Part shown: positions 30,779-60,250 of the stretch, piece by piece
How positions within the stretch are numbered: position 1 is the first letter of the stretch
Layout: the number at the start of each line of letters is the position of its first letter
DNA from: Squalus acanthias
Lineage: Eukaryota
Length of the DNA stretch: 64,000 nucleotides
Reading direction: 5' to 3'
Assembly: GCA_030390025.1 (NCBI GenBank)
Contig: CM059431.1
Location: 99,016,001-99,080,000 of the forward strand
The notes under the pieces: generated by a model
The model's input: the letters and a program-made list of their open reading frames with translations, nothing else
The model's database searches: none
What the model was told of the DNA's origin: nothing
Position numbers and translations under genes: made by a program

Positions 30779-33700
30779 TGGTAGCATAGTGGTGATGTCA
30801 CTGGACTAGTACTCCAGAGGCCTGGACTAATGATCCAGAGACGTGAGTTCAAATCCCACCACGGCAGCTGGGGAATTTAAATTCAGTTAATTAAATAAAT
30901 CTGGAATAAAAAGCTAGAATCAGTAATGGTGACCATGAAACTATCGGATTGTCGTAAAAACCCATCTGGTTCACTAATGTCTTTAGAGAAGGAAATCTGC
31001 AGTCGTTACCTGGTCTGGCCTATATGTGACTCCAGACCCAAGCAATGTGGTTGATTGTTAACTGCCCCCTGAAATGTAACAAACCGCTACGAAACACAAT
31101 AATAAGAATGAAACCGGACGGACCACTTGGCACCGGCTACAGACACGGCAACGGCATACCCAGCCCAGTCGACCATGCAAAGTCCTCCTCACCAACATCT
31201 GGGGACTTGTGCCAAAATTGGGAGAGCTGTCCCACAGACTAGTCAAGCAACAGCCTGACATAGTCATACTCACAGAATCACACCTTTCAGCTAATGTCTC
31301 AAACTCCTCCATCACCATCCCTGGGTATGTCCTGTCCCATTGGCAGGACAGACCCACCAGGGGTGGCTATACAGTTGGGAAGGAGTGACCCTGGGAGTCC
31401 TCAACATTGACTCTGGACCCCATGAAGTCTCATGGCTTCAGGCCAAGCATGGGTAAGGAATCCTCCTGCTGATTACCACCTACCACCCTCCCTCAGCTGA
31501 TGAATCAGCACTCTGCCATGTTGAACACCACTTGGAAGAAGCACTGAGTAGCAAGGGCACAGAATGTACTCTGGGTGGGGGACTTTGAAGTCCATCACCA
31601 AGAGTGGCTCGGTAGCACCACTACTGACCGAGCTGCCCTGAAGGACATAACTGCCAGTCTGGGCCTGCGACAGGTGGTGAGAGAACCAACACGAGGGAAA
31701 AACCTACTTGACCTCGTCCTCACTAATCTACCTGTCGCAGATACATCTGTCCATGATAGTATTGGTAGCAGTGATCACCGCACAGTCATTGTGGAGATGA
31801 AGTCCCGTCTTCACACTGAGGACACCCTCCATCGTTTTGTGTGACACTACCACCGTACTAAATGGGATAGATTCAGAACAGATCTAGCAGCTCAGAACTG
31901 GGCATCCATGAGGCACTGAGGGGCAGCAGCAGCAGCAGAATTGTATTCCACCGCAATCTGTAACCTCGTGGCCCGGCATATCCCTCACTCTACCATTAAC
32001 ATCAAGCCAGGGGACCAACCCTGGTTCAATAAGGAGTGTAGAAGAGCATGCCCGGAGCAGCACCAGGCGTACTTAAAAATGAGGTGCCAACCTGGGGAAG
32101 CTGCAACACAGGACCACGTGCATGCTAAAAAGCGGAAGCAGCATGCTATAGACAGAGCTTAGTGATCCCACAATCAACGGATCAGATCAAAGCTCTGCAG
32201 TCCTGCCACATCCAGTTGTGAATGGTGATGGACCATTAAACAACTAACGGGAGGAGGAGGCTCCATGAATATCCCCATCCTCAATGATGGTGGAGCCCAG
32301 CACGTGAGTGCAAAAGACAAGGCTGAAGCATTTAGCAACCATCTTCAGCCAGAAGTACCGAATGGATGATCCATACCGGCCTACTCCTGAGGTCCCCACC
32401 ATCACAGAAGCCAGTCTTCAGCCAATTCGATTCATTCCACATGATATCAAGAAACAGCTGAGCGCATTGGATACAGCAAAGGCTGTGGGCCCCGACAACA
32501 TCCCGGCTGTCGTGCTGAAAATTTGTGCTCCAGAACTAGCCGTGCCTCTAGCCAAGCTGTTCCAGTACAGCTACAACACTGGCATCTACCCAACAATGTG
32601 GAAAACTGCCCAAGTATGTCCTGTCCACAAAAAGCAGGACAAATCCAATCCGGCCAATTACTGCCCCATCAGTCTACTTTCAATCATCAGCAAAGTGATG
32701 GAAGGTGTCGTCGACAGTGCTATCAAGCGACACTTACTCACCAATAACCTGCTCACTGATGCCCAGCTTGGGATCTGCCAAGACCACTCAGCTCCAGACC
32801 TCATTACAGCCTTGGTCCAAACATGGACAAAGGAGCTGAATTCCAGAGGTGAGGTGAGAGGGACTGCCCTTGACATCAAAGCAGCATTTGACCGAGTGTG
32901 GCATCAAGGAGCCTCTAGTAAAACTGAAGTCAATGGGAATCGGGGGGAAAACTCTCCACTGGCTGGAGTCATACCTAGCACAAAGGAAGATGGTTGGAGG
33001 TCAATCATCACAGCCCCGGACATCGCTGCAGGTGTTCCTCAGGGCAGTGTCCTAGGCCCAACCATCTTCAACTGCTTCATCAATGACCTTCCCTCCAACA
33101 TAAGGTCAGAAATGGGGATGTTCGCCGATGACTGCACAGTGTTCAGTGCCATTCACAACTCATAGAGTCATGCAGTCATAACGGCACAGAAGGAGGCCAT
33201 TCGGCCCATTGAGTCCGTGCCGGCTCTCTGTGGAGCAATCCAGTCAGTCCCATTCTCCCGCTCTATCCCCGTAGCCCTGCAAGTTTATTTCCCTCAAGTG
33301 CCTATCCAGTCTCCCTTGAAAACATTGAGTGTCTCCGCTTCCACCACTTCCGTCGGCAGCGAGTTCCAGGTCCTCACCCTCGCTGCATAAAAAAGTTTTT
33401 CCTCTCATCCCCCCTGTATCTCTTGCCCAAAACCTTAAATCTGTGTCCCCTAGTCCTTGTACCATCAACTAGTGGGAACAGCCTTTCCCTGTCTAGCCTA
33501 TCCAAATCCGTCATAATCTTGTACACCTCTATCAAATCACTCCTTAACCTCCTTTGCTCTAATGAAAACAAATCCAGCTTCTCCAACCTGTCCTTGTAGC
33601 TAAGATCCCCCAACCCCAGAACCATGCTGGTAAATCTCCTCTGCACTCTCTCAAGGGCCTTCACATCCTTCCTAAAGTGTGGTGACCAGAACTGGACGCA

Positions 33701-34675
33701 ATACTCCAGTTGTGGCCTAACCAGTGCTTTATAAAGGTTCAGCATAACTTCTCTCCTTTTGTACTCAATACCTCTATTTATTAAGCCCAAGATCCCATAT
33801 GCTTTGCTAACCACTCTCTCAATATGTCCCACCACCTTCAGGGACCTATGCACATTAACTCCCAGATCCCTCTGTCCCTGCGCACTCTGTAAAACTGTGT
33901 CATTAAGTGTATATTGCCTCTCCCTCTTCCTTCTGCCAAAATGCATCACCTCACACTTCTCAGATAATGAAGCAGTCCATGCCTGCGTGCAACAAGACCT
34001 GAACGACATTCAGGCTTGGGCTGATAAGTGGCAGGTAACATTTGTGCCACACAAGTGCCAGGCAATGACTATCTCCAACAAGAGCAGGTCAGAGGCTAGG
34101 TATTCTCTGGCGAGTGTCTCACTCCTGACTCCCCAAAGCCTTTCCACCATCTACAAGGCACAAGTAAGGAGTGTGATGGAATACTCTCCACTTGCCTGGA
34201 TGAATGCAGCTACAACACTCAAGAAGCGCGACATCATCCAGGACAAAGCAGCCCTCTTGATTGGCAGCCCATCCACCACCTTAAACATTCACTCCCTCCA
34301 CCACCGGCGCACCGTGGCTGCAGTGTGTACCATCTACAAGATGCAATGCAGCAACTCGCCAAGGCTTCTTTGGCAGCACCTCCCAAACCCGCAACCTCTA
34401 CCACCTAGAAGGACAAGGGCAGCAGGCGCATGGGAACACCACCACCTCCAAGTTCCCCACCATCCTGACTTGGAAGTATATCGCCGATCCTTCATCGTCG
34501 CTGGGTCAAAATCCTGGAACTCCCTCCCTAACAGCACTGTGGGAGCACCTTCACCAAACGGACTGCAGCGGTTCAAGAAGGCGGCTCACCACCACCTTCT
34601 CAAGGGCAATTAGGGATGGGCAAAAAATGCCGGCCTTGCCAGTGACACCCAGATCCCATGAACGAATAAAAAAAA
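30779..34675 (+). mobile_element. Degenerate near full-length non-LTR retrotransposon (APE endonuclease + RT; clade uncertain) with a tRNA-like 5' head
   Basis: EN motifs NIWGL..PDIVILTESHL, GDF, LLDLVL, SDH; RT motifs [26 protein letters not shown]; tail aagggcaattagggatggg plus A-rich end; frameshifts and stops. Confidence 0.9.
33161..33958 (-). mobile_element. CR1 3' fragment nested inside the LINE above
   Basis: [33 protein letters not shown]; host RT stops at ...AIHNS and resumes at SDNEAVH. Confidence 0.9.
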
Positions 34676-34756
34676 GCAAGGCGAGTCAAGGGGCGGAATA
34701 GCCTCCTTTTGCTCCTAATTCAACCATCAGTCGAGCGTCAACATATTAACTCTCTT

Positions 34757-35273
34757 CAACAACAATTTGCGTTTATACAGCGCCTTTAACGTAATAAAAC
34801 ATCCCAAGGTGCTTCACAGAAGTGTTAACAGACAAAATTTGACACCGAGCCACATAAGGAGATATTAGGGCAGGTGACCAAAAGCTTGGTCAAAGAGGGA
34901 GGTTTTAAGGCGCGTCTTAAAGGAGGAGAGAGAGGCGGAGAGGTTTAGGGAGGGAATTCCAGAGCTGGGGGCCCAGGCGGCTGAAGGCACGGCCGCCAAT
35001 GGTAGAGCGATTATAATCAGGGATGCTCAATAGGTGGGAATTGGAGGAGCGCAGAGATCTGGGAGGGTTGTGGGGCTGGAGGAGGTTACAGAGATAGGGA
35101 TGGGGGCGAGGAGGTTACAGAGATAGGGAGGGTTGTGGGGCTGGAGGAGGTTACAGAGATAGGGATGGGGGTGAGGAGGTTACAGAGATAGGAGGGTTGT
35201 GGGGCTGGAAGAGGTTACAGAGATAGGGAGGGGGGCGAGGCCATGGAGGGATTTGAAAACAAGGATGAGAATT
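34757..35273 (-). mobile_element. L2 3' fragment with a local tandem expansion (~35060-35230)
   Basis: Same family as 54495-55110; gaggttacagagataggga occurs about five times. Confidence 0.85.
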
Positions 35274-35317
35274 CGTCGGGCTTCATTCAAAACAAGGCCA
35301 ATAATTTTTCCATAAAC

Positions 35318-35990
35318 AGGCGGTCAAGAAGGCAAACGGTATGCTGGCCTTCATAGCAAAAGGGTTGGAATACAGGAACAGGGATACCTTGCTGCAGCTG
35401 TACAGGGCACTGGTGAGACCACACCTCGAGTACTGTGTACAGTTTTGGTCACCTCATCTGAGGAAAGATGTTCTTGCCATGGAGGGGGTGCAGCGGCGAT
35501 TCACCAGGCTGATACCAGGAATGGCGGGATTGACCTATGAGGAGAGACTATGTAGTTTAGGGATGTACACACTGGAGTTTAGAAGATTGAGAGGGGACCT
35601 CATAGAAGTGTATAAAATTCTGACAGGTCTAGACAGACTAGATGCAGAAGGAATGTTTCCCTTGGCGGGTGAGAACAGAACTAGAGGACATAATTTAAGG
35701 ATAAGGGCTAAACCATTTAGGACAGAAATGAGGGGGAATTTCTTCACTCAGAGGGTGGTGAACCTGTGGAACTCATTGCCACAGAGGGCAGTGTACGCCA
35801 GCTCATTAAATATATTTAAGAGGGAATTAGATATATTTCTACAGGCAAAAGGGGTTAAGGGTTACGGAGAGAAGGCGGGGACGGGATACTGAATTGGAGG
35901 ATCAGCCATGATCTCATTAAATGGCGGAGCAGGCTCGAAGGGCCGGATGGCCTACTCCTGCTCCTATCTTCTATGTATCTATGTATCTAT
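35318..35990 (+). mobile_element. CR1 3' fragment with an uninterrupted reading frame
   Basis: 183-aa ORF 35341-35892; ctatgtat tail repeats. Confidence 0.9.
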
Positions 35991-38314: not shown

Positions 38315-40062
38315 AGCCGTGGCTCAATGGGCAGCACCCTCGCCGCTGAGTCAGAAGGTTGTGGGTTCAAGTCCCACTCCAGAGACTTGAGCACAAAATC
38401 TAGGCTGACACTCCAGTGCAGTACTGAGGGAGAGCCGCACTGTCGGAGGTGCAGTACTGAGGGAGCACCGCACTGTTGGACGGGCGGTACTGAGGGAGCG
38501 CCGCACTGTCGGAGGGGCGGTACTGAGGGAGCGCCGCACTGTCGGAGGGGCAGTACTGAGGGAGCGCCGCACTGTCGGAGGGGCAGTACTGAGGGAGTGC
38601 CGCACTGTCGGAGGGGCAGTACTGAGGGAGCGCCGCACTGTCGGAGGGGCAGTGCTGAGGGAGCGCCGCACTGTCGGAGGGGCAGTACTGAGGGAGCGCT
38701 GCACTGTCGGAGGGGCAGTACTGAGGGAGTGCTGCACTGTCGGAGGAGCAGTACTGAGGGAGTGCTGCACTGTCGGAGGGGCAGTACTGAGCGAGCGCTG
38801 CACTGTCAGAGGGGCAGTACTGAGGGAGTGTTACACTGTCGGAGGAGCAGTACTGAGGGAGTGCTGCACTGTCGGAGGGGCAGTACTGAGGGAGCGCTGC
38901 GCTGTTGGAGGGGCAGTACTGAGGGAGCGCTGCACTGTCGGAGGGGCAGTACTGAGGGAGCGCCGCACTGTCGGAGGGGCAGTACTGAGGGAGTGCCGCA
39001 CTGTCGGAGGGGCAGTACTGAGGGAGCGCCGCACTGTCGGAGGGGCAGTGCTGAGGGAGCGCCGCACTGTCGGAGGGGCAGTACTGAGGGAGCGCTGCAC
39101 TGTCGGAGGGGCAGTACTGAGGGAGCGCCGCACTATCAGAGGGGCAGTACTGAGGGAGCGCTGCGCTGTCGGAGGGGCAGTACTGAGCGAGCGCTGCACT
39201 GTCGGAGGGGCAGTACTGAGGGAGTGTTACACTGTCGGAGGAGCAGTACTGAGGGAGTGCTGCACTGTCGGAGGGGCAGTACTGAGGGAGCGCTGCGCTG
39301 TTGGAGGGGCAGTACTGAGGGAGCGCTGCACTATCAGAGGGGCAGTACTGAGGGAGCGCTGCGCTGTCGGAGGGGCAGTACTGAGCGAGCGCTGCACTGT
39401 CGGTGGGGCAGTACTGAGGGAGTGTTACACTGTCGGAGGAGCAGTACTGAGGGAGCGCTGCGCTGTCGGAGGGGCAGTACTGAGGGAGTGTTACACTGTC
39501 GGAGGGTCAGTACTGAGGGAGCGCTGCACTGTCGGAGGGGCAGTACTGAGGAAGCGCTGCGCTGTTGGAGGGGCAGTACTGAGGGAGCGCTGCACTGTCG
39601 GAGGGGCAGTACTGAGGGAGCGCCGCACTGTCGGAGGGGCAGTACTGAGGGAGTGTTACACTGTCAGAGGGGCAGTACTGAGGGAGCACTGCACTGTCAG
39701 AGAGGCAGTACTGAGGGAGTGCTGCACTGTCGGAGGTGCCGTCTTTCGGGTGAGACGTTAAATCGAGGCCCCGTCTGCCCTCTGAGATGGACGTAAAAAA
39801 TACCATGGCACTAATTCAAAGAGGAGCAGGGGAGTTATCCCTGGTATCCTGGCAAATATTTATCCCTCAATCAACATCACTAAATGGATTATCTGATCAT
39901 TATCATGTTGCTGTATGTGGGAGCTTGCTGTGCGCAAATTATCTGCTGCGTTTCCCACATTCCAACAGTAACTCCACTTCAGAAAAGTGCTTCATTTGCT
40001 GTAAAGCACTTTGGGACGTCCTGAGGCTGTGAAAGCCGCTATGTTAATACAAGTCTTTCTTT
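38315..40062 (+). mobile_element. Full-length Deu-domain SINE with internal 33-bp minisatellite (~40 copies, ~38418-39736)
   Basis: A box tggctcaatgg, B box ggttcaagtcc, array of gcagtactgagggagcgccgcactgtcggaggg, then gtgccgtctttcgggtgagacgttaaa and a (tctt)n tail. Confidence 0.92.
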
Positions 40063-41309: not shown

Positions 41310-41485
41310 GAAAAGGAAAGAAAACGCATTTCTCCAGCGCCTTTCACCGCCTCAGGACATCCCAAAGCGCTTCACAGCCAATGAAGTATTTTTAAATTGG
41401 AGTCACTGTTGTAATGTAGGAAACGCGGCCGCCAATTTGTGCACAGCAAGCTCCCACTAACAGGAATGACCAGATAGTCTGTTTT
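41310..41485 (-). mobile_element. SINE 3' tail fragment
   Basis: Family match; a separate head fragment lies at ~41640-41712. Confidence 0.75.
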
Positions 41486-41724
41486 CGTGATGTACGTTGC
41501 CTATAAGCAACATTAGCCAGACTGCTGGCTATTTCCTTGGCCATTTGACAGCCTCATGCTTGGTTTTGGTTTGAATCTGCTTACTTTTCCAGGTGGGAGG
41601 CAGGGGGTTCGGGAGGGCGAAGCTGAAAGCACAGAAGTGGAGTCCCTGGAGTGGGATGTGACTCCCCGACAACTTTCTGACTCAGAGGTGAGAGTGTTAA
41701 CAAATGAGCCGAGGCAGACATGAG

Positions 41725-44700
41725 CCACCCACTCTAATCCCACTCTACCCCTCACTCCCCGCACCCTTTAATATCCCACCCACTCTAATCCCACTCTCCT
41801 CCTCACTCCCCGCACCCTTTAATATCCCACCCAGTCCAATCCCACACTCCTGCTCACTCCCCATACCCTTTAATATCCCACCCAGTCTAATCCCACTCTC
41901 CCGCTCACTCCCTGTACACTTTAATATCCCACCCAGTCTAATCCCACTCTCCTGCTCACTCCCCATACACTTTAATATCCCACCCAGTCTAATCCCACTC
42001 TCCCGCTCACTCCCCGTACACTTTAATATCCCACCCAGTCTAATCCCACTCTCCTGCTCACTCCCCATACACTTTAATATCCCACCCACTCTAATCCCAC
42101 TCTCCCGCTCACTCCCCGTACCCTTTAATATCCCACCCAGTCTAATCCCACTCTACCCCACACTCCCCGTACCCTTTAATATCCCACCCAGTCTAATCCC
42201 ACTCTACCCCACACTCCCCGTACCCTTTAATATCCCACCCAGTCTAATCCCACTCTCCCCCTCACTCCCCGTACCCTTTAATATCCCACACAGTCTAATC
42301 CCACTCTCTCCCTCACTCCCCACACCCTTTAATATCCCACCCAGTCTAATCCCACTCTCCCGCTCACTCCCCGTATACTTTAATATCCCACCCAGTCTAA
42401 TCCCACTCTCCCCCTCACTCCCCGTATACTTTAATATCCCACCCACTCTAATCCCACTCTACCCCTCACTCCCTGCACCCTTTAATATCCCACCCAGTCT
42501 AATCCCACTCTACCCCACACTCCCCGTACCCTTTAATATCCCACCCAGTCTAATGCCACTCTACCCCTCACTCCCCGTACCCTTTAATATCCCACCCAGT
42601 CTAATCCCACTCTCCCCCTCACTCCCCGTATACTTTAATATCCCACCCACTCTAATCCCACTCTACCCCTCACTCCCCGCACCCTTTAATATCCCACCCA
42701 GTCTAATCCCACTCTCCCCACCACTCCCCGTACCCTTTAATATCCCACCCAGTCTAATCTCACTCTCCCCCTCACTCCCCGTACCCTTTAATATCCCACC
42801 CAGTCTAATCCCACCCTCCCCCCCACTCCCCGTACTCTTTAATATCCCACCCAGTCTAATCCCACTCTCCCCCTCACTCCCCATACCCTTTAATATCACA
42901 ACCAGTCTATTCCCACTCTCCCCCTCACTCCCCGTACACTTTAATATCAGACCCAGTCTAATCCCACTCTCCAGCTCACTCCCCATACCCATTAATATCC
43001 CACCCAGTCTAGTCCCACTCTCCCCCTCACTCCCTGTACACTTTAATATCTCACCCAGTCTAATCGCACGCTCCCCCTCACTCCGCGCACCCTTTAATAT
43101 CCCACCCAGTCTAATCCCACTCTCCCCTCACTCCCCGTACCCTTTAATAACCCACCCAGTCTAATCCCACTTTCCCACTCACTCCCCGAAATTTTTAATA
43201 TCCCACCAAGTCTAATCTAGCTCTCCCGCTCACTCCCCGTACCCTTTAATATCCCACCCAGTCTAATCCCACTCTCCTGCTCACTCCCCGTACCCTTTAA
43301 TATCCCACCCAGTCTAATCTCACTCTCCCCTTCACTCCCCAAACCCTTTAATATCCCACCCAGTCTAATCCCACACTCCTGCTCACTCCCCGTACCCTTT
43401 AATATCCCACACAGTCTAATCCCACTCTCTCCCTCACTCCCCACACCCTTTAATATCCCACCCAGTCTAATCCCACTCTCCCCCTCACTCCCCGTATCCT
43501 TTAATATCCCACCCAGTCTAATCCCACTCTCCCCCTCACTCCCCGTATCCTTTAATATCCCACCCAGTCTAATCCCACTCTCCCCCTCACTCCCCGTGTC
43601 CTTTAATTTCCCACCCAGTCTAATCCCACTCTCCCCCTCTCACCGTACCCTTTAATATCCCACCAGTCTAATCCGACTCTCCCCCTCACTCCCCGTACCC
43701 TTTAATATCCCACCCACTCTAATCCCACTCTCCCCCTCACTCCCCGTACCCTTTAATATCCCACCCAGTCTAATCCCACTCTCCCCCTCACTCCCCGTAT
43801 CCTTTAATTTCCCACCCAGTCTAATCCCACTCTCCCCCTCTCACCGTACCCTTTAATATCCCACCAGTCTAATCCCACTCTCCCCCTCACTCCCCGTACC
43901 CTTTAATATCCCACCCAGTCTAATCCCACTCTCCCCTCACTCCCCGTACCCTTTAATAACCCACCCAGTCTAATCCCACTTTCCCACTCACTCCCCGAAA
44001 TTTTTAATATCCCACCAAGTCTAATCTAGCTCTCCCGCTCACTCCCCGTACCCTTTAATATCCCACCCAGTCTAATCCCACTCTCCTGCTCACTCCCCGT
44101 ACCCTTTAATATCCCACCCAGTCTAATCTCACTCTCCCCTTCACTCCCCAAACCCTTTAATATCCCACCCAGTCTAATCCCACTCTCCTGCTCACTCCCC
44201 GTACCCTTTAATATCCCACCCAGTCTAATCCCACTCTCTCCCTCACTCCCCACACCCTTTAATATCCCACCCAGTCTAATCCCACTCTCCCCCTCACTCC
44301 CCGTATCCTTTAATATCCCACCCAGTCTAATCCCACTCTCCCCCTCACTCCCCGTATCCTTTAATATCCCACCCAGTCTAATCCCACTCTCCCCCTCACT
44401 CCCCGTGTCCTTTAATTTCCCACCCAGTCTAATCCCACTCTCCCCCTCTCACCGTACCCTTTAATATCCCACCAGTCTAATCCCACTCTCCCCCTCACTC
44501 CCCGTACCCTTTAATATCCCACCCACTCTAATCCCACTCTCCCCCTCACTCCCCGTACCCTTTAATATCCCACTCAGTCTAATCCCACTCTCCCCCTCAC
44601 TCCCCGTATCCTTTAATTTCCCACCCAGTCTAATCCCACTCTCCCCCTCTCACCGTAACCTTTAATATCCCACCAGTCTAATCCCACTCTCCCCCTCACT

Positions 44701-47700
44701 CCCCGTACCCTTTAATATCCCACCCACTCTAATCCCACTCTCCCCCTCACTCCCCGTACCCTTTAATATCCCACCCACTCTAATCGCACTCTACCCCTCA
44801 CTCCCCATACACTTTAATATCCCATCCAGTCTAATCCCACTCTCCCCCTACTCCCTGTAACCTTTAATATCTCACCCAGTCTAATCCCACTCTCCTGCTC
44901 TCTCCGCGCACCCTTTAATATCCCATCCAGTCTAATCCCACTCTCCCCCTCACTCCCCGTACCCTTTACTATCTCACCCAGTTGAATCCCACTCTCCCCT
45001 CACTCCCAATACCCTTTAATATCTCACCCAGTCTAATCCCACTCTCCCCCTCACTCCCTGTACCCTTTAATATCTCACCCAGTCTAATCCCACTCTCCTG
45101 TTCACTCCGCGCACCCTTTAATATCCCATCCAGTCTAATCCCACTCTCCCCCTCACATCCTGCACCCTTTAATATCTCACCCAGTCTAATCACACCCTCC
45201 CCCTCACTCCACGCACCCTTTAATATCGCACCCAGTCTAATCCCACTCTACCCCTCACTCCCCGTACCCTTTAATATCTCACCCAGTTTAAACCCACTCT
45301 CCCCTCACTCCCCGTACCCTTTAATATCCCACCCAGTCGAATCCCACTCTCCCGCTCACTCCCCGAACTCTTTAATATCCCACCAATTCTAATCTCACTC
45401 TCCCCCTCACTCCCCGTACCCTATAATATCCCACCCAGTCTAATCCCACTCTCCCCCTCACTCCGCGTACCCTTTAATATCCCACCCAGTCTAATCCCAC
45501 TCTCCCGCTCACTCCCCGTACCCTTTAATATCCCACCCAGTCTAATCCCACTCTCCTGCTCACTCCCCACACTCTTTCATATCCCACCCAGTCTAATCCC
45601 ACTCTCTCCCTCACTCCCCACACCCTTTAATATCCCACCCAGTCTAATCCTACTCTCCTGCTCACTCCCCATACCCTTTAATATCCCACCCAGTCTAATC
45701 CCACTCTCCCCATCACTCCCCAAATTCTTTAATATCCCACCCAGTCTAATCTCACTCTCCTGCTCACTCCCCGTAACCTTTAATATCCCACCCAGTCTAA
45801 TCCCACTCTCTCCCTCACTCCCCACACCCTTTAATATCCCACCCAGTCTAATCCGACTCTATCGCTCACTCCCCGCACCCTTTAATATCCCACCCAGTCT
45901 AATTCCACTCTCCTGCTCACTCCCCGCACCCTTTAATATCCCACCCAGTCTAATCCCACTCTACCCCTCACTCCCCGTACCCTTTAATATCGCACCCATT
46001 CTAATCCCACTCTCCCCCTCACTCCCCGTACCCTTTAATATCCCACCCAGTCTAATCCCACTCTCCCCCTCACTCCCCATACCCTTTAATATCCCACCCA
46101 GTCTAATCCCACTCTCCCTCTCGCTCTCTCTATCCTTTAATAACCCACCCAGTCTAATCCAACTCTCCCGCTCACTCCCCGTACCCTTTCATATCCCACC
46201 CAGTCTAATCCCACTCTCTCCCTCACTCCCCACACCCTTTAATATCCCACCCAGTCTAATCCTACTCTCCTGCTCACTCCCCATACCCTTTAATATCCCA
46301 CCCAGTCTAATCCCACTCTCCCCTTCACTCCCCAAATTCTTTAATATCCCACCCAGTCTAATCTCACTCTCCTGCTCACTCCCCATACCCTTTAATATCC
46401 CACCCAGTCTAATCCCACTCTCCCCCTCACTCCCCGTACCCTTTAATATCCCACCCACTCTAATCCCACTCTACCCCTCACTCCCCATACACTTTAATAT
46501 CCCACCCAGTCTAATCCCACTCTCCAGTTCACTCCCCATACCCATTAATATCCCACCCAGTCTAATCCCACTCTCCCCCTCACTCCCTGTACCCTTTAAT
46601 ATCTCACCCAGTCTAATCCCACTCTCCTGCTCTCTCCGCGCACCCTTTAATATCCCATCCAGTCTAATCCCACTCTCCCCCTCACTCCCCGTACCCTTTA
46701 CTATCTCACCCAGTTGAATCCCACTCTCCCCTCACTCCCAATACCCATTAATATCCCACCCAGTCTAATCCCAGTATCCCCCTCACATCCTGTACCCTTT
46801 AATATCTCACCCAGTCTAATCACACCCTCCCCCTCACTCCGCGCACCCTTTAATATCGCACCCAGTCTAATCCCACTCTACCCCTCACTCCCCGTACCCT
46901 TTAATATCTCACCCAGTTTAAACCCACTCTCCCCTCACTCCCCGTACCCTTTAATATCCCACCCAGTCGAATCCCACTCTCCCGCTCACTCCCCGAACTC
47001 TTTAATATCCCACCAATTCTAATCTCACTCTCCCCCTCACTCCTCGTACCCTTTAATATCCCACCCAGTCTAATCCCACTCTCCCCCTCACTCCGCGTAC
47101 CCTTTAATATCCCACCCAGTCTAATCCCACTCTCCCGCTCACTCCCCGTACCCTTTAATATCCCACCCAGTCTAATCCGACTCTATCGCTCACTCCCCGC
47201 ACCCTTTAATATCCCACCCAGTCTAATTCCACTCTCCTGCTCACTCCCCGCACCCTTTAATATCCCACCCAGTCTAATCCCACTCTCCTGCTCACTCCCC
47301 GCACCCTTTAATATCCCACCCAGTCTAATCCCACTCTACCCCTCACTCCCCGTACCCTTTAATATCGCACCCATTCTAATCCCACTCTCCCCCTCACTCC
47401 CCGTACCCTTTAATATCCCACCCAGTCTAATCCCACTCTCCCCCTCACTCCCCATACCCTTTAATATCCCACCCAGTCTAATCCCACTCTCCCTCTCGCT
47501 CTCCCTATCCTTTAATAACCCACCCAGTCTAATCCAACTCTCCCGCTCACTCCCCGTACCCTTTCATATCCCACCCAGTCTAATCCCACTCTCTCCCTCA
47601 CTCCCCACACCCTTTAATATCCCACCCAGTCTAATCCTACTCTCCTGCTCACTCCCCATACCCTTTAATATCCCACCCAGTCTAATCCCACTCTCCCCTT

Positions 47701-50700
47701 CACTCCCCAAATTCTTTAATATCCCACCCAGTCTAATCTCACTCTCCTGCTCACTCCCCATACCCTTTAATATCCCACCCACTCTAATCCCACTCTACCC
47801 CTCACTCCCCATGCACTTTAATATCCCACCCAGTCTAATCCCACTCTCCCCCTCACTCCCCGTACCCTTTAATATCCCACCCACTCTAATCCCACTCTAC
47901 CCCTCACTCCCCATACACTTTAATATCCCACCCAGTCTAATCCCACTCTCCAGTTCACTCCCCATACCCATTAATATCCCACCCAGTCTAATCCCACTCT
48001 CCCCCTCACTCCCTGTACCCTTTAATATCTCACCCAGTCTAATCCCACTCTCCTGCTCTCTCCGCGCACCCTTTAGTATCCCATCCAGTCTAATCCCACT
48101 CTCCCCCTCACTCCCCGTACCCTTTACTATCTCACCCAGTTGAATCCCACTCTCCCCTCACTCCCAATACCCATTAATATCCCACCCAGTCTAATCCCAG
48201 TCTCCCCCTCACTCCCTGTAACCTTTAATATCTCACCCAGTCTAATCGCACCCTCCCCCTCACTCCGCGCACCCTTTAATATCCCACCCAGTCTAATCCC
48301 ACTCTCCCGCTCACTCCCCGTACCCTTTAATATCTCACCCAGTTTAAACCCACTCTCCCCTCACTCCCCGTACCCTTTAATATCCCACCCAGTCGAATCC
48401 CACTCTCCCGCTCACTCCCCGAACCCTTTAATATCCCACCCAGTCTAATCTCACTCTCCCCTCACTCCCCGTACCCTTTAATATCCCACCCAGTCTAATC
48501 CCACTCTCCCCCTCACTCCGCGTACCCTTTAATATCCCACCCAGTCTAATCCCACTCTCCCTCTCGCTCTCCCTATCCTTTAATAACCCACCCAGTCTAA
48601 TCCCACTCTCCCGCTCACTCCCCGTACCCTTTAATATCCCACCCAGTCTAATCCCACTCTCCTGCTCACTCCCCACACCCTTTCATATCCCACCCAGTCT
48701 AATCCCACTCTCTCCCTCACTCCCCACACCCTTTAATATCCCACCCAGTCTAATCCCACTCTCCTGCTCACTCCCCGTACCCTTTAATATCCCACCCAGT
48801 CTAATCCCACTCTCCCCATCACTCCCCAAATTCTTTAATATCCCACCCAGTCTAATCTCACTCTCCTGCTCACTCCCCGTAACCTTTAATATCCCACCCA
48901 GTCTAATCCCACTCTCTCCCTCACTCCCCACACCCTTTAATATCCCACCCAGTCTAATCCGACTCTATCGCTCACTCCCCGCACCCTTTAATATCCCACC
49001 CAGTCTAATCCCACTCTATCGCTCACTCCCTGTACCCTTTAATATCCCACCCAGTCTAATCCCTCTCTCCCCCTCACTCCCCACACCCTTTAATATCCCA
49101 CCCAGTCTAATCCCACTCTACCCCTCACTCCCCGTACCCTTTAATATCGCACCCATTCTAATCCCACTCTCCCCCTCACTCCCCGTACCCTTTAATATCC
49201 CACCCAGTCTAATCCCACTCTCCCCCTCACTCCGCGTACCCTTTAATATCCCACCCAGTCTAATCCCACTCTCCCTCTCGCTCTCCCTATCCTTTAATAA
49301 CCCACCCAGTCTAATCCCACTCTCCCGCTCACTCCCCGTACCCTTTAATATCCCACCCAGTCTAATCCCACTCTCCTGCTCACTCCCCACACCCTTTCAT
49401 ATCCCACCCAGTCTAATCCCACTCTCCCGCTCACTCCCCGTACCCTTTAATATCCCACCCAGTCTAATCCCACTCTCCTGCTCACTCCCCACACCCTTTC
49501 ATATCCCACCCAGTCTAATCCCACTCTCTCCCTCACTCCCCACACCCTTTAATATCCCACCCAGTCTAATCCCACTCTCCCGCTCACTCCCCGTACCCTT
49601 TAATATCCCACCCAGTCTAATCCCACTCTCCCCATCACTCCCCAAATTCTTTAATATCCCACCCAGTCTAATCTCACTCTCCTGCTCACTCCCCGTAACC
49701 TTTAATATCCCACCCAGTCTAATCCCACTCTCTCCCTCACTCCCCACACCCTTTAATATCCCACCCAGTCTAATCCGACTCTATCGCTCACTCCCCGCAC
49801 CCTTTAATATCCCACCCAGTCTAATCCCACTCTATCGCTCACTCCCTGTACACTTTAATATCCCACCCAGTCTAATCCCACTCTACCCCTCACTCCCCGT
49901 ACCCTTTAATATCGCACCCATTCTAATCCCACTATCCCCCTCACTCCCCGTACCCTTTAATATCCCACCCAGTCTAATCCCACTCTCCCCCTCACTCCGC
50001 GTACCCTTTAATATCCCACCCAGTCTAATCCCACTCTCCCTCTCGCTCTCCCTATCCTTTAATAACCCACCCAGTCTAATCCCACTCTCCCGCTCACTCC
50101 CCGTACCCTTTAATATCCCACCCAGTCTAATCCCACTCTCCTGCTCACTCCCCACACCCTTTCATATCCCACCCAGTCTAATCCCACTCTCTCCCTCACT
50201 CCCCACACCCTTTAATATCCCACCCAGTCTAATCCTACTCTCCTGCTCACTCCCCATACCCTTTAATATCCCACCCAGTCTAATCCCACTCTTCCCATCA
50301 CTCCCCAAATTCTTTAATATCCCACCCAGTCTAATCCCACTCTCTCCCTCACTCCCCACACCCTTTAATATCCCACCCAGTCTAATCCGACTCTATCGCT
50401 CACTCCCCGCACCCTTTAATATCCCACCCAGTCTAATCCCACTCTCTCCCTCACTCCCCACACCCTTTAATATCCCACCCAGTCTAATCCGACTCTATCG
50501 CTCACTCCCTGTACACTTTAATATCCCACCCAGTCTAATCCCACTCTACCCCTCACTCCCCGTACCCTTTAATATCGCACCCATTCTAATCCCACTCTCC
50601 CCCTCACTCCCCGTGCCCTTTAATATCCCACCCAGTCTAATTCCACTCTCCTGCTCACTCCCCGCACCCTTTAATATCCCACCCAGTCTAATCCCACTCT

Positions 50701-51692
50701 CCGCCTCACTCCCCATACCCTTTAATATCCCACCCAGTCTAATCCGTCTCTATCGCTCACTCCCCGCACCCTTTAATATCCCACCCAGTCTAATTCCTCT
50801 CTCCTGCTCACTCCCCGCACCCTTTAATATCCCACCCAGTCTAATCCCACTCTATCGCTCACTCCCTGTACACTTTAATATCCCACCCAGTCTAATCCCA
50901 CTCTACCCCTCACTCCCCGTACCCTTTAATATCGCACCCATTCTAATCCCACTCTCCCCCTCACTCCCCGTACCCTTTAATATCCCACCCAGTCTAATCC
51001 CACACTCCCGCTCACTCCTTGTACCCTTTAATATCCCACCCAGTCTAATCCCACTCTCCTGCTCGATCCCCAGACCCTTTAATATCCCACCCAGTCTAAT
51101 CCCACTCTCCAGCTCACTCCCTGTACCCTTTAATATCCCACCCAGTCTAATCCCACTCTCCTGCTCGATCCACAGACCCTTTAATATCCCACCCAGTCTA
51201 ATCCCACTCTCCCGCTCACTCCCCGTACCCTTTAATATCCCACCCAGTGTAACCCCACTCTCCTGCTCGATCCACAGACCCTTTAATATCCCACCCAGTC
51301 TAATCCCACTCTCCTGCTCACTCCCCGTTCTGTTTAATATCCCACCCAGTGTAATCCCACTCTCCCCCTCACTCCCCGTACCCTTTAATATCCCACCCAG
51401 TCTAATCCCACCCTCCCCCTCACTCCCCGTACACTTTAATATCCCACCCAGTCTAATCCCACTCTCCCCCTCCCTCCCTGTACCCTTTAATATCCCACCC
51501 AGTCTAATCCCACTCTCCTGCTCGATCCGCAGACCCTTTAATATCCCTCCCAGTCTAATCCCACTCTCCCGCTCACTCCCTGTACCCTTTAATATCCCAC
51601 CCAGTCTAATCCCACTCTCCTGCTCACTCCCCGTTCTGTTTAATAGCCCACCCAGTCTAATCCCACTCTCCTGCTCGCTCTCTGTACCCTTT
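41725..51692. repeat. ~10 kb tandem array, 51-bp unit, about 195 copies
   Basis: Consensus cccacccagtctaatcccactctccccctcactccccgtaccctttaatat; explains the 17-aa periodic ORFs. Confidence 0.98.
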
Positions 51693-51935
51693 AAGATTCC
51701 AGTTTTTCAAGCAACTATTTCATTCTCTTTTAAAATAATTTCAGGTTTCTGTATCAGCCATGGTTTGTGGCCAAGATCTCCACATTCTAACCACCCTGAG
51801 TGCAAAGACATTTTTTTAAAAACGTCCCCTTCAATTCTTGTGATTATCTTCAGTTTGTGCCGTCATCTCAGTGGACACAATCTATCATTATATTCATCTT
51901 ATCAGAACCCTTCATAATCTTGAAGACCTCTAAAG
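51693..51935 (-). mobile_element. Old CR1 3' fragment that runs directly into the 51-bp array
   Basis: Minus strand EVFKIMKG near 51930 and FKRE*NSCLKNWNLKGYRERAGEWD* across the array boundary. Confidence 0.8.
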
Positions 51936-52539
51936 ACTTCATAACCTTGACTGCTCCAAAGTGGACCCGAAATTCTCAACTGGCTCTTCAGAGGCCGCTG
52001 TGTAAATCAGTCTAATTCTGCTTGTAGTTTTCGCCAAAACAACTAAGACTGTGAATAAAGGCTGAAGTAAGTATCTAAGTGGCTGCGCACTATCATAAAA
52101 CACCTGATAGCTGCACTGTCTCAGTCTCTGAACCTCTCTCAGTTCTCTGCCTCAGATCTACAGCGATGGAACTGGAAACAAATTAAAAAAAATATTATTT
52201 AAATTATTAATAGTCATGATATAATAGCAGTAACGGACGAGGTTTTGGCGTGTGAGAGCCCCTATCTGCACCTGGCTTTGTCTTAGGCTAGAATTCTTTT
52301 GTAGTTTTCTAAGGCCTGTACTGGTCTCACACTTTCTGAATCATTATTGCCTCAGTACCTGTGCAGTCGAAGGGAATATCTCACACTGAGCCATCAATGC
52401 AAGGTACATGGTGCATGTATATCATGTTCCACCTCGCATGCAAGAGTTACTTAAGATCAACTCTAATAGGATCAAACCCAATTTAAGATGATGTGCAAAA
52501 CCATTTGCTCGATAGTTCCCTTCCCATACTATTATTTTT

Positions 52540-55224: not shown

Positions 55225-56410
55225 AGGGCCCTGATGAGACCACACCTGGAGTACTGTGTACAGTTTTGGTCTCCTTACCTAAGGAAGGACATACTTGCCA
55301 TAGAGGGAGTGCAATGAAGGTTCACCAGACTGATTCCTGGGATGGGGGGATTGTCCTATGAGGAGAGATTGAGTAGACTAGGCCTATATTCTCTGGAGTT
55401 TAGAAGAATGAGAGGTGATCTCATTGAAACATACAAAATTCTTACAGGACTTGACAGGGTAGATGCAGGGCGGATGTTTTCCCTGGCTGGGGAGTCTCGA
55501 ACCAGGGTCACAGTATCAGAATAAGGGGTCGGCCATTTAAGACTGAGATGAGGAGAAATTTCTTCACTCAGAGGGTGGTGAATCTTTGTGGAATTCTCTA
55601 CCCCAGAGGGCTGTGGAGATTCAATCGTTGAGTATATTCAAGGCTGAGATCGGTAGATTTTTGGATATTAAGGGAATCAAGGGATATGGAGATAGTGTAG
55701 GAAAGTGGAGTTGAGGTAGAAGATCAGCCATGATCTTATTGAATGGCGGAGCAGGCTCGAGGGGCCGAATGGCCGACTCCTGCTCCTAATTCTTATGTTC
55801 TTACGTTTTTAACGGGAGGCAGAGCTGATATCACATATTTGACATTATTATTTAAAGCCAAAATGACCCGCTTGTGATCTCTCCCTTTTTGAGGGCTTAA
55901 TTCTAAACCTTTATTAATCACTGATTCGGCCTCAGCTGGAGTATTGAACGGTCCCAGGGATGAGGGACTTCAGTTACGTGGAGAGACTGGAGAAGCTGGG
56001 GTTGTTCTCCTTAGAGCAGAGAAGGTTAAGGGGAGATTTAATAGAGGTGTTCAAAATCATGAAGGGTTTTGCTGGAATAAATAAGGAGAAACTGTGTCCA
56101 GTGGCAGGAGGGTCGGTAACCAGAGGACACAGATTGAAGGTCATTGGCAAAAGAACCAGAGGGGAGATGAGGAGAATTTATTTTATGCAGCGAGTTGTTG
56201 TGATCTGGAATGCGCTGCCTGAAAGGGCGGTGGAAGCAGATTCAATAGTAACTTTCAAAAGGGAATTGGATAAATACTTGAAAAGGAAAAATTTGCAGGG
56301 CTATGGGGAGAGAGCAGGGGGGAGTGGGACTAATTGGAGAGCTCTTTCAAAGAGCCGGCACAGGCACGATGGGCCGAATGGCCTCCTCCTGTGCTGTATC
56401 ATTCTCTGAT
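55225..56410 (+). mobile_element. Two tandem CR1 3' fragments (~55225-55803 and ~55900-56410)
   Basis: ORFs 55342-55524 and 55960-56409 are CR1 ORF2 C-termini with different tails. Confidence 0.85.
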
Positions 56411-58669: not shown

Positions 58670-58929
58670 AGTAAATTAGATACAGAATCGCCAAAGCATA
58701 TATAGATAGAGAACAAAGCATGTGTACCTTACAATTGCAGACCACTAAATTAAATCATCCTGACTATCTGCCGAGGTGTGATAAAGTTAATCAAGTCAGC
58801 CAGGAAGGTACCACATCAAAGACATTTCAAGAAGGAACCAGACAGGTTCTGGTCAATAAATGGGATTCAGGATTATTAGAAATGTGCCAAGGGAACACCG
58901 TGGTTAGAAAATAATGCTTCAAAAATAAT

Positions 58930-60250
58930 AATAGGATTGGGCAGAGTCAACACGGATTTATGAAAGGGAAATCGTGTTTGACAAATCTGTTAGAGATTTT
59001 TGAGGTTGTAACTAGCAGAATAGATAAGGGGGAACCAGTGGATGTGGTGTATTTGGATTTTCAGAAGGCATACGATAAGGTGCCACACAAGAGGCTATTA
59101 AACAAAATTAGGGCTCCTGGGATTGGGGGTAATATACTAGCATGGATTGAGGATTGGTTAACGGACAGAAAACAGAGAGTAGGAATAAACGGGTCATTTT
59201 CGGGTTGGCAGGCTGGAACTAGTGGGGTTACCACAAGGATCAGTGCTTGGGCCTCAGCTATTCACAATCTATATCAATGATTTGGATGAGGGGACCAAAT
59301 GTGATATATCCAAGTTTGCTGATGATACAAAGCTAGGTTAGAATGTAAGTTGTGAGGAGGATTCAAGGAGGCTTCAAGGGGATATAGACAGGCTAAGTGA
59401 GCGGGCAAGAACATGGCAAATGGATATAATGTGGAGAAATGTGAAGTTATCCACTTTGGTAGGAAAAATAGAAAAGCAGAGTATTTTTTAAATGGTGAGA
59501 GATTGGGAAATGTTGGTGTTCAGAGGGACCTGAGTGTCCTTGTACACGAATTGCTGAAAGTTAACATGCAAGTACAGCAAGCAATTAGGAAAGCAAATGG
59601 TATGTTGGCCTTTATTACAAGAGGATTTGAGTATAAGAGTAAAGATGTCTTACTGCAATTATATAGGGCCCTGGTGAGACCACACCTGGAGTATTGTGTA
59701 CAGTTTTGGTCTCCTTACCTAAGGAAGGATATACTTGCCATAGAGGGAGTGCAACGAAGGTTCACCAGACTGGTTCCTGGGATGGGGGGGATTGTCCTAT
59801 GAGGAGAGATTGAATAGACTAGGCCTATATTCTCTAGAGTTTAGAAGAATGAGAGGTGATCTCATTGAAACATATCGAATTCTTACAGGGCTTGACAGGG
59901 TAGATGCAGGGAGGATGTTTCCCCTGGCTGGGGAGTCTAGAACCAGGGGTCACAGTCTCAGAATGAGGGGTCGGCCATTCAGGACTGAGATGAGGAGAAA
60001 TTTCTTCACTCAGAGGGTGGTGAATCTTTGGAATTCTCTACCCCAGAGGGCTGTGGAGGCTCAGTCGTTGAGTATATTCAAGACAGAGATCGATAGATTT
60101 TTGAATATTACGGGAATCAAGGGATATGGGGATAGTGCAAGAAAGTGGAGATGAGGTAGAAGATCAGCCATGATCTTATTGAATGGCGGAGCAGGCTTGA
60201 GGGGCCGAATGGCCGACTCCTGCTCCTATTTCTTATGTTCTTATGTTCTT
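58930..60250 (+). mobile_element. CR1 RT to 3' end fragment with frameshifts
   Basis: [41 protein letters not shown]; ttcttatg tail. Confidence 0.92.

What the first reader, a model, noticed from the sequence alone, without database searches (positions are those of the whole stretch)
41725..51935. 10 kb satellite grown in place from the last codons of a CR1 LINE ORF2
Seen: on minus, a decayed CR1 (51935-51693) reads FKRE*NSCLKNWNLKGYRERAGEWD*, and its last codons are the first unit of the array. Later units read KGYGE*(A/G)GEWD*. Other CR1 copies here end NLQGYGDRAGEWD* (33244-33468) or KRELDKYLKRKNLQGYGERAG (56270-56320). Inference: a 51-bp slice spanning the CR1 stop codon was amplified ~195-fold with its parent still attached, a visible birth record of a satellite. 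It makes up about half of the 19.2 kb last intron of the BTLA-like gene.
Basis: partly seen in the sequence, partly recalled or inferred. Interest (0 to 1): 0.8.

Follow-up and report, generated by a model that had tools for sequence, protein, structure and literature searches.

The report
CR1-derived 51-bp satellite array
A 10-kb run of 196 copies of a 51-base piece taken from the tail end of a jumping gene (a CR1-type LINE) sits inside an old copy of that gene, but the same repeat occurs at many other places in this genome and in other species' data, so this is one outpost of a dispersed repeat family and not its birthplace.

Summary
Window 41725-51701 holds 196 gap-free 51-bp units. On the minus strand the first unit is the end of a decayed, 5'-truncated CR1-type LINE copy (51992-51648). 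It covers the last 13 codons, the TAG stop (51659-51657) and 9 nt beyond. The far edge also runs on into 7 nt of LINE tail before a SINE.

The "birth record" reading fails:
- The unit-to-unit junction occurs 13,912 times genome-wide; 142 of these are in the window.
- 23 other arrays have the same or nearly the same consensus, and all share the same derived junction base.
- At least 5 other loci have their array in register inside different old LINE copies.
- Two runs labelled as other organisms hold the unit.
- The LINE flanks are about 16-24% diverged, while units are about 3-8% from a consensus shared by all arrays.

Growth was local: most variant unit types are private and lie in multi-unit duplicated blocks. 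How the array entered this copy is unresolved. Either it was copied in from another array-bearing LINE copy, or this copy arrived with a few units that were later overwritten. Satellites derived from LINE 3' ends are already known. Array length is not validated by reads, and the BTLA-intron claim is not verified.

The parts
51648..51992 (-). Old, 5'-truncated CR1-type LINE 3' fragment. Its last 51 nt (51698-51648) are the first unit of the array.
   Evidence: nhmmer with a profile of 24 array-free family copies gives model positions 43-407, E 8.1e-76. It is 83.8% identical to the family consensus over 235 upstream positions. Its terminal branch is 0.18 substitutions per site. Genome search with the flank gives 840 first-look candidates, 40 scored at 70-78% identity.
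51657..51659 (-). TAG stop codon of the decayed LINE ORF2 frame, inside the first unit.
   Evidence: Translation ...NLKGYRERAGEWD* and coordinates; sequence.
41725..51701 (-). Array of 196 contiguous 51-bp units. The sense strand (G-rich) is the window minus strand. Window 47876-47826 (minus) reads exactly the consensus GATATTAAAGGGTACGGGGAGTGAGGGGGAGAGTGGGATTAGACTGGGTGG.
   Evidence: TRF; unit parses. The sense strand has G 4755 and C 458 of 9977 bases, and 78 of 196 units hold a canonical G-quadruplex motif, with none on the other strand. Block duplications are visible, e.g. rows 65-85 ~ 93-112, 138-153 ~ 158-169, and the motif of rows 16-20 recurring at 23-27, 36-39, 51-55, 86-90, 113-116.
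41718..41724 (-). Seven nt (CTCATGT) that continue the LINE tail directly after the last unit.
   Evidence: nhmmer hit 41774-41718 = model positions 358-414. Locus L025 has the same continuation, and so does the family consensus.
41310..41717 (-). tRNA-type SINE copy that starts right after the 7-nt LINE tail remnant. The rest of the LINE tail is not found beyond it.
   Evidence: Sequence. I judged it by eye against the SINE copies printed and did not align it with a tool; the end coordinate is approximate. No further profile hit for model positions 415-486 lies nearby.

Best explanation
The 10-kb block is one local array of a dispersed, G-rich 51-bp satellite (minisatellite-type) family. The family's unit was cut, once, from the 3' end of an old CR1-type LINE subfamily: the last 13 codons of ORF2, the stop, and 9 nt of 3' UTR.

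At this locus the array lies in register inside an old, 5'-truncated copy of that LINE. The copy's own end forms the first unit, and 7 nt of LINE tail follow the last unit.

Shown:
- the anatomy;
- genome-wide spread of the family;
- one consensus and one derived junction shared by all arrays examined;
- host LINE copies that are old and independent;
- local growth by duplication of multi-unit blocks, probably through unequal exchange or replication slippage.

Inferred: the array interior does not descend from this copy's own codons. It comes from the family-wide pool through exchange between loci.

My preferred path (about 45%) is ectopic gene conversion or recombination between LINE 3' ends, with an array-bearing copy as donor and this resident copy as recipient. 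The alternative path (about 30%) is that this LINE copy arrived by retrotransposition already carrying a few units, whose interior was later overwritten by exchange with other arrays.

I see no evidence of a cellular function. The G-quadruplex motif gained by the satellite version of the unit may promote instability, but that is speculation.
For: (1) Array and junctions.

(2) Unit homology. The profile of 24 array-free copies matches units at positions 357-407, and no copy has a second unit. The LINE consensus differs from the satellite consensus only at unit positions 1, 15, 22, 26, 27 and 46.

(3) Genome-wide family. There are 13,912 junction hits against 0 for the control, 142 of them in the window. 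A 6-unit query finds arrays at 92-95% identity on many contigs.

(4) Single origin. The consensus of 23 other arrays is identical or differs at 1-2 of the sites 14, 15, 26, 27 and, in one 8-unit array, 49. All arrays share G after GGTGG at the junction.

(5) Recurrent in-register hosts.
- An upstream LINE continuation is seen at 7 of 20 junctions (WIN, L021, L024, L025, L031, L032, L037).
- A downstream LINE tail is seen at 8 of 20 (L021, L024, L025, L030, WIN; weaker at L028 and two arrays in L036).
- In a separate sample from contig C1, 2 of 3 independent loci are in register upstream and 3 of 4 downstream.
- The 5' truncation points differ (model positions 3, 43, 82, 218, 243, 303, 305, 308, 341), so these are separate LINE insertions.

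(6) Age discordance. Host flanks are 76-84% identical to the family consensus and 62-77% to each other, with terminal branches of 0.17-0.29. Units differ from their own array's consensus by 1.4-5.6 of 51 nt (1.4-4.3 in arrays of 12 or more units).

(7) Hybrid first unit, in 7 in-register loci compared with 24 array-free copies:
- positions 37-51 differ from the LINE consensus at 4/98 against 70/336 (P 2.7e-5);
- positions 1-36 differ at 30/217 against 168/744 (P 0.0055);
- G at position 46 is found in 7/7 against 2/24 (P 1.4e-5).

(8) Local growth. Block duplications are visible, and 136 of 156 units with 2 or more differences have no exact match in 29 other arrays. Two segmentally duplicated loci have flanks 99.6-99.8% identical, yet each array pair differs by 6 units.

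(9) Other organisms. Contigs of runs X6 and X12, which carry two other organism labels, lie on the unit part of the stretch; 463 and 36 contigs respectively are at least 99% alike.
Against: - The last unit is satellite-like to its very end and abuts an old LINE tail exactly in register at WIN, L021, L024, L025 and L030. A simple conversion or crossover model predicts resident sequence at the right end of the last unit.
- A short, old copy (L067: about 3 diverged units plus a LINE tail, with the LINE state at position 46 in the last unit) shows that LINE 3' ends carrying a few units do exist. This favours the alternative path.
- G at position 46 in all first units could simply mark a LINE sublineage; array-free copies L062 and L063 also have it.
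- The tree of flanks is an unresolved star. A clade of array-bearing flanks is neither supported nor rejected (p-AU 0.30; 0.12 with L062 and L063 added).
- The junction samples are not random: they are the top-scoring hits and the first-listed hits on one contig.
- Flank identities use a consensus built from the array-free copies themselves, which flatters those copies.
- No empty orthologous or allelic site was seen.
- The 10-kb length rests on the assembly alone.
Confidence: 0.7

Rival explanations
1. The satellite was born here: a 51-bp slice of this very CR1 copy was amplified in place, and every other array in the genome descends from this locus.
For: The LINE copy is attached in register on both sides. 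Its own unit shares C at position 15 and G at position 46 with the satellite. Units 2-14, next to the LINE, carry more LINE-like states (C22, CA at 26-27) than the interior. Most variant types are private to this array.
Against: - The window holds only 142 of 13,912 junction hits, and larger arrays exist: 17 kb on a 24-kb contig, L039 plus L040.
- At least five other loci have the same in-register architecture inside different old LINE copies. Nothing singles this one out.
- The copy's private C at position 4 is in none of the other 195 units. Its A16 and A18 are not the array's majority states.
- Proximal units of one type carry T at position 15, the LINE-ancestral state, which this copy's own unit lacks.
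- Even the first inter-unit junction already has the derived G shared by all arrays.
- The unit is present in runs with two other organism labels.
Confidence: 0.06
2. Pure retrotransposition. A CR1 sublineage acquired the tandem duplication in its 3' end and scattered copies carrying a few units. Each array, including this one, then expanded only from its own units, with no exchange between loci. The identical consensus would reflect early expansion plus mutation bias or constraint on the G-rich unit.
For: In-register flanks on both sides and varied 5' truncation points are what retrotransposition gives. L067 is an old 5'-truncated 3-unit copy with a tail. G46 marks all first units and two array-free copies. 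A clade of array-bearing flanks is not rejected. Three 33-bp arrays sit in the same way inside SINE copies in this window.
Against: - With flanks 16-24% diverged and units coalescing at about 3-8%, purely local descent predicts several locus-specific substitutions in each array's consensus. Across the 24 arrays whose consensus was computed, 0-3 were seen, confined to sites 14, 15, 26 and 27 apart from position 49 in one 8-unit array.
- The right third of the first unit and the whole last unit are much less diverged than the adjoining LINE sequence.
- None of 24 array-free copies has two units.
- Array-bearing flanks are no closer to each other (62-77%) than random pairs (mean 75.6%).
Confidence: 0.15
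3. Assembly artefact. The array's length, or its junction with the LINE, was produced by mis-assembly of a repeat.
For: Array length cannot be checked with the contig-level data available. Contigs of two runs carry 8 extra letters behind 51863, so the assembly is not letter-perfect here.
Against: - The same 283-letter contig in runs from two samples bridges the LINE flank and the first unit without substitutions.
- The array has an ordered internal structure of diverged blocks, not a collapsed or expanded identical repeat.
- Both edges are in register with LINE sequence, as at other loci.
Confidence: 0.03

Closest known systems
Chicken HinfI tandem repeat with an embedded CR1 element (Li and Leung 2006). 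I saw it only as cited in passages and a table of the review PMC9659126.
   Same: It is a tandem repeat whose unit holds the 3' UTR and a partial ORF2 of a CR1 LINE, so it is a satellite built from a CR1 3' end.
   Different: Here the unit is only 51 bp and spans the stop codon. The arrays lie in register inside many separate old CR1 copies, and the family is dispersed at many, mostly chromosome-terminal, loci. I did not read the original paper, so no finer comparison is made.
Common cetacean satellite derived from the 3' end of L1, and other LINE-ORF2-derived satellites (PROsat, Pvc20) listed in PMC9659126 (passages and table only).
   Same: A satellite monomer that is homologous to a LINE 3' terminal part.
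   Different: The LINE clade is different (L1), and those satellites are not described there as embedded in register in dispersed LINE copies.
G-rich vertebrate minisatellites that cluster near chromosome ends and change length by unequal exchange or gene conversion (recalled, not searched).
   Same: - Unit length is 51 bp and arrays range from about 0.1 to more than 17 kb.
- Strand asymmetry is strong: G 47.7%, C 4.6%.
- 17 of 22 placed arrays lie within 8.3 Mb of a contig end, in a non-random sample.
- Length changes fast: 6 units at about 0.25% flank divergence.
   Different: This is one family of thousands of units with a traceable LINE origin. The window's own array lies about 60 Mb from either end of its 159.8-Mb contig.
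Spread of euchromatic satellite blocks to new loci by recombination or extrachromosomal circles, as proposed for Drosophila 1.688 and Rsp-like repeats (recalled, not searched).
   Same: Young, homogeneous satellite blocks are found at many dispersed loci, which implies DNA-level movement between loci.
   Different: Here about 40% of the junctions examined lie in register inside old copies of the parent LINE. That would make long TE homology, not microhomology, the guide. No circles or donor-recipient pairs were observed.

Membership tests
CR1-type LINE (the parent of the unit) | A 3' end with a hairpin followed by the 8-bp microsatellite ATTCTRTG (definition read in passages of PMC8665684). 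| tested here: met
   The consensus of 24 family copies ends ...CATTCTATGATTCTAT. The 79-nt tail folds with a GGGCC/GGCC-centred hairpin at -23.7 kcal/mol. No shuffle control was run for the fold.
CR1-type LINE (the parent of the unit) | Endonuclease and reverse transcriptase domains upstream in the same element. | tested here: inconclusive
   Met for the related, younger and very abundant family whose 3' 480 nt match the same profile. In L047, Exo_endo_phos_2 (weak) and RVT_1 lie upstream of the C-terminal motif. In the window, Exo_endo_phos_2 is at 31548-31841, and RVT_1 is at 32308-33162 and 58915-59277, followed by profile hits. For the old subfamily that gave rise to the unit, only the 3' 486 nt were studied.
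CR1-type LINE (the parent of the unit) | The RT groups with the CR1 clade and not with L2, Rex1 or other clades. | not testable with these tools
   No reference library of LINE clades was on hand, and no phylogeny was made.
TE-derived satellite DNA | The monomer is homologous to an internal segment of a dispersed TE, and arrays occur at more than one locus. | tested here: met
   Units match profile positions 357-407 of the LINE 3' end. Arrays are found on at least 20 contigs.
   The parent's C at unit position 4 is in 0 of 195 other units. A16 and A18 are minority states, and some proximal units carry T15, which the parent lacks.
   The window holds 142 of 13,912 junction hits. Other arrays sit in register in other LINE copies. 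The unit is present in runs with two other organism labels. Derivation of the other arrays from this one was not tested by a unit phylogeny.
LINE with a variable tandem repeat in its 3' end, spread by retrotransposition | Array-bearing copies form a sublineage of the LINE family, and their flanks are as young as their repeats. | tested here: inconclusive
   The flanks are old. A clade is neither supported nor rejected (p-AU 0.30). G46 is in 7/7 first units against 2/24 array-free copies. One old 3-unit copy exists, L067.

The most novel reading that the evidence does not exclude
Old, diverged CR1 copies serve as homology landing pads for a younger satellite that was born from the same CR1 family. 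Arrays would be copied in register into resident single-unit LINE 3' ends by ectopic gene conversion or recombination. The hundreds of thousands of dispersed LINE tails would then form a ready-made network of insertion sites through which a satellite can colonise a genome. The 33-bp arrays that sit in register in three SINE copies in the same window may follow the same rule.
Probability: 0.3. Interest if true: 0.65.

Novelty: new member of a known kind. Interest (0 to 1): 0.38.

Why it matters
Satellites that arise from transposable elements are well documented. What is seldom visible is how they reach new loci. In this family the parent LINE is still recognisable at both edges of many arrays, and the host copies are clearly older than the arrays they hold. 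This makes it possible to test whether satellites travel with the retrotransposon or are copied between its dispersed copies by recombination. For the window itself the finding is ordinary: a large intronic or intergenic minisatellite-type array with no sign of function.

Tried and rejected
- **BTLA-like gene.** A Pfam scan of 139 ORFs of 75 aa or more outside the arrays found no Ig-type domain, only LINE domains and sub-threshold hits. An earlier scan of 9 long ORFs gave the same result. The gene claim stays unverified, not refuted.
- **Read support beyond the first unit.**
  - No contig listed bridges the first-to-second-unit junction or the array.
  - Bins 51938-52126 had no cover in any of the 4 runs. 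The tool warns that holes prove nothing.
- **Parent's own unit as a LINE sublineage marker.** A genome pattern search gave 24 hits at up to 2 mismatches, mostly satellite units, and was uninformative.
- **Rest of this LINE copy's tail beyond the SINE.** No profile hit was found.
- **Tree of LINE flanks.** It is an unresolved star, with 0 of 26 inner branches well supported.
- **Independent recurrent birth at each LINE copy.** I rejected this because all arrays share the derived junction base and one consensus.
- **Segmental duplication of one ancestral LINE-plus-array locus.** I rejected this as a general explanation because the LINE truncation points and flanks differ. It does apply to the C1 pairs L068/L070 and L069/L071.
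- **Earlier notes of this scan.** Nothing was found by place, sequence or words.
- **Literature.**
  - No paper in the held library prints four 15-letter words of the unit.
  - Searches on shark or elasmobranch satellites found no 51-bp CR1-derived satellite in the passages I read of PMC11406177 and 10.1101/2025.06.08.657570.
  - Supplements were not searched, so a prior description there cannot be excluded.
- **More distant arrays.** L073 and L074 added diversity but no decision: an older, more heterogeneous array and a roughly 35-bp deletion derivative.

Full report
**1.

Tandem Repeats Finder reports one array at 41725-51701: period 51, 196.1 copies, 89% matches, no indels. A fuzzy parse finds 196 units with no spacer between any of the 195 neighbour pairs. 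A wrap-around alignment gives a mean of 3.34 differences per unit from the array's own consensus. Window 47876-47826 on the minus strand reads exactly that consensus: GATATTAAAGGGTACGGGGAGTGAGGGGGAGAGTGGGATTAGACTGGGTGG (row 77).

The minus strand of 51657-51935 ends ...FKRE*NSCLKNWNLKGYRERAGEWD*. The stop codon is at 51659-51657, inside the first unit.

**2. The flank is a LINE 3' end, and both array edges are in register with it**

The 299 nt next to the array (51702-52000, minus) match an old interspersed family. There were 840 first-look candidates, of which 40 were scored at 70-78% identity. The homology of those copies runs on through the first unit, to about 51650.

I aligned 26 array-free copies. 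I dropped 2 whose 3' parts did not align and built a 486-position profile from the remaining 24. Every one of the 24 has exactly one copy of the unit-homologous segment, at profile positions 357-407. It is followed by a tail that ends ...CATTCTATGATTCTAT.

On the window the profile gives two hits at the array edges:
- 51992-51648, positions 43-407, E 8e-76;
- 41774-41718, positions 358-414.

So the last unit is followed by CTCATGT, the next 7 nt of the LINE. A tRNA-type SINE begins immediately after it (SINE identity judged by eye against the copies). The rest of the tail is not found. The array is therefore an internal expansion within one 5'-truncated LINE copy.

**3. Is the LINE a CR1?**

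The family's tail has the two 3' features that define CR1 in the passages I read of PMC8665684:
- a predicted hairpin, -23.7 kcal/mol for the 79-nt tail, with no shuffle control;
- about two copies of the octamer ATTCTRTG.

A related, younger and hugely abundant family gave 832,316 first-look candidates. It matches the same profile over about 480 nt and has endonuclease and RVT_1 domains upstream. I made no RT phylogeny, so "CR1-type" is supported by the 3' structure only.

**4. The satellite is not confined to this locus**

- Six units of the window find arrays at 92-95% identity on many contigs: 1075 first-look candidates, 40 scored.
- The 28-nt unit-to-unit junction, allowing one mismatch, occurs 13,912 times in the 3.71-Gb genome against 0 for the reversed control. 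The window holds 142 of these, about 1%.
- If other arrays are detected at the window's rate (142 of 195 junctions), the family has roughly 19,000 units, or about 1 Mb. This is a rough extrapolation.
- One 24-kb contig is about 17 kb of this satellite (L039 and L040).
- Of 22 arrays on large contigs, 17 lie within 8.3 Mb of a contig end. This sample is not random. The window's array is about 60 Mb from either end.
- Contigs from runs labelled as two other organisms (X6, X12) lie on the unit part of the stretch; 463 and 36 of them are at least 99% alike. I did not try to identify the organisms.

**5. Single origin**

The consensus was computed for 23 other arrays. It is identical to the window's or differs at 1-2 of the hypervariable sites 14, 15, 26 and 27, plus position 49 in one 8-unit array. 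With six further arrays, 29 other arrays (1598 units) were used to compare unit types. Two of those sites are CpG positions in common variants.

The LINE consensus differs from the satellite consensus at unit positions 1, 15, 22, 26, 27 and 46. Joining the LINE's unit end (GGTGG) to its unit start would give A at position 1. Every array has G there, including the very first junction in the window. Independent births at each LINE copy are therefore unlikely.

**6. The in-register LINE host recurs**

| Sample | Upstream LINE continuation | Downstream LINE tail |
|---|---|---|
| Loci fetched | 7 of 20 junctions: WIN, L021, L024, L025, L031, L032, L037 (2 more have only 5-10 nt) | 8 of 20 junctions: L021, L024, L025, L030, WIN; weaker at L028 and two arrays in L036 |
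| First-listed arrays on contig C1, independent loci only | 2 of 3 | 3 of 4 |

L068/L070 and L069/L071 are segmental duplicates and are counted once each. Both sides are in register at WIN, L021, L024, L025 and L068/L070, and weakly at L069/L071.

The LINE fragments start at different profile positions (3, 43, 82, 218, 243, 303, 305, 308, 341). They are therefore separate insertions, not copies of one locus. The remaining arrays abut unrelated sequence. In L026 and L038 the same 3' end of another TE precedes an array three times.

**7. Hosts are older than their arrays**

| Measure | Array-bearing flanks | Array-free copies |
|---|---|---|
| Identity of upstream flank to LINE consensus | 76-84% | 71-90% (all but one 81-90%) |
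| Pairwise identity | 62-77% | mean 75.6% |
| Terminal branch, substitutions per site | 0.17-0.29 | median of all end branches 0.16 |

The tree is an unresolved star. Holding the array-bearing flanks together is not rejected (p-AU 0.30).

Units differ from their own array's consensus by only 1.4-5.6 of 51 nt (1.4-4.3 in arrays of 12 or more units), and those consensus sequences are the same at all loci. Under purely local descent, the lineage leading to each array's most recent common unit should have gathered several locus-specific substitutions. None is seen outside the hypervariable sites, apart from position 49 in one 8-unit array. So the array interiors share ancestry more recently than their host LINE copies were inserted. 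Some transfer of sequence between loci is needed.

**8. The edges**

The first, LINE-owned unit is a hybrid. I compared 7 in-register loci with 24 array-free copies:

| Part of first unit | In-register loci | Array-free copies | Fisher P |
|---|---|---|---|
| Positions 1-36, differences from LINE consensus | 30/217 | 168/744 | 0.0055 |
| Positions 37-51, differences from LINE consensus | 4/98 | 70/336 | 2.7e-5 |
| G at position 46 | 7/7 | 2/24 | 1.4e-5 |

In most loci the second unit is already consensus-like. The window (6 differences), L025 (5) and L069 (10) are exceptions. At the other edge the last unit is satellite-like to its end and meets an old LINE tail exactly in register.

This asymmetry is not explained by either simple model:
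- A LINE that carried the repeat when it inserted predicts an old right end in the last unit. That is seen only in the short old copy L067.
- A single-crossover insertion of a satellite circle also predicts resident sequence there.

Ectopic gene conversion between LINE 3' ends, with an array-bearing donor, fits best. It remains an inference. The small numbers and the alignment of units to the satellite consensus are caveats.

**9. Growth in place is real**

The window's array is built from duplicated multi-unit blocks:
- rows 65-85 ~ 93-112 ~ 125-135;
- rows 138-153 ~ 158-169;
- a 4-5-unit motif that recurs six times.

A 306-bp stretch is 100% identical to another one 1375 bp away. Of 156 units with two or more differences from the consensus, only 20 have an exact match among 1598 units of 29 other arrays. 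The shared types involve almost only sites 14, 15 and 26-28. Units 2-14, next to the LINE, are the most LINE-like, with C22 and CA at 26-27.

Two segmentally duplicated loci on contig C1 have flanks with 5 mismatches in 2015 nt. Their arrays nevertheless differ by 6 units each, so length changes quickly.

**10. A possible driver**

The satellite consensus contains a canonical G-quadruplex motif. The LINE version of the unit lacks it. In the window, 78 of 196 units have the motif on the G-rich strand and none on the other strand. This is a sequence observation only. No structure or instability was tested.

**11. Comparison with what is known**

The review PMC9659126 (passages and table) lists satellites derived from LINE 3' ends: the chicken HinfI repeat with a CR1 3' UTR and partial ORF2, and the common cetacean satellite from the L1 3' end. 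The kind is therefore known.

I found no description of this 51-bp unit. Four 15-letter words of it occur in no held paper. The shark papers I looked at do not mention it in the passages found. Supplements were not searched.

**12. Verdict**

The unit's origin in a CR1-type 3' end spanning the stop codon is confirmed, and in-place growth is confirmed. The "visible birth record" is not. This is one array of a dispersed, multi-species family, and its interior is younger than the LINE copy that hosts it.

The point of some interest is the recurrent, in-register residence of young arrays inside old copies of the parent LINE. The 33-bp arrays inside three SINE copies in the same window parallel it.

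Two things remain unverified: array length, because only contig-level data were available, and the BTLA-intron statement.

Noticed in passing
window 29046-29879, 38418-39736, 63645-63996: Three arrays of a 33-bp unit (25, 40 and at least 10.7 copies; the last runs to the window end). Each sits in register inside a tRNA-type SINE copy, with the SINE 5' part before the array and the SINE continuation after it. Single-unit versions occur at 20437-20469 and 2245-2277. The architecture is the same as that of the 51-bp array in the LINE.
   Followed up: partly
window 2474-9241 (+): A 2255-aa open frame with no Pfam hit. It is rich in S, Q, L and P and begins with a coiled-coil-like stretch. It looks like one giant coding exon of an unidentified gene.
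   Followed up: partly
window 51863: Contigs of two runs from two samples carry 8 extra letters behind this position compared with the window. This is an indel polymorphism or a small assembly error inside the LINE fragment (table 4).
   Followed up: no
L068/L070 and L069/L071 (contig C1, about 1.80/1.82 Mb and 2.44/2.46 Mb): A segmental duplication carries two LINE-embedded 51-bp arrays. The flanks are 99.6-99.8% identical, but each array pair differs by 6 units (1046 vs 1353 bp; 941 vs 635 bp).
   Followed up: yes
L026:1240-4946, L038:381-4415, L038:5165-5609: The same 3' end of another repeat, ending ...cctaagaagaggaGGGATTA, precedes a 51-bp array three times. This suggests a composite unit that is itself duplicated.
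   Followed up: no
L073:703-985: A roughly 35-bp deletion derivative of the unit is repeated three times next to two LINE-like full units and a LINE tail.
   Followed up: no
window 31548-35981 (+): A long LINE copy of the younger related family. Exo_endo_phos_2 is at 31548-31841, RVT_1 at 32308-33162, and the 3' end at 35498-35981. It is apparently interrupted by a minus-strand LINE fragment at 33178-33636.
   Followed up: no
window 22320-23018: A 32-bp tandem array of 22 copies at 94% matches, of unknown origin.
   Followed up: no
window 11110-11793 (-): A weak, sub-threshold GIY-YIG hit in a 228-aa open frame (E 7.9e-4, 20.1 bits against a cutoff of 22.6).
   Followed up: no
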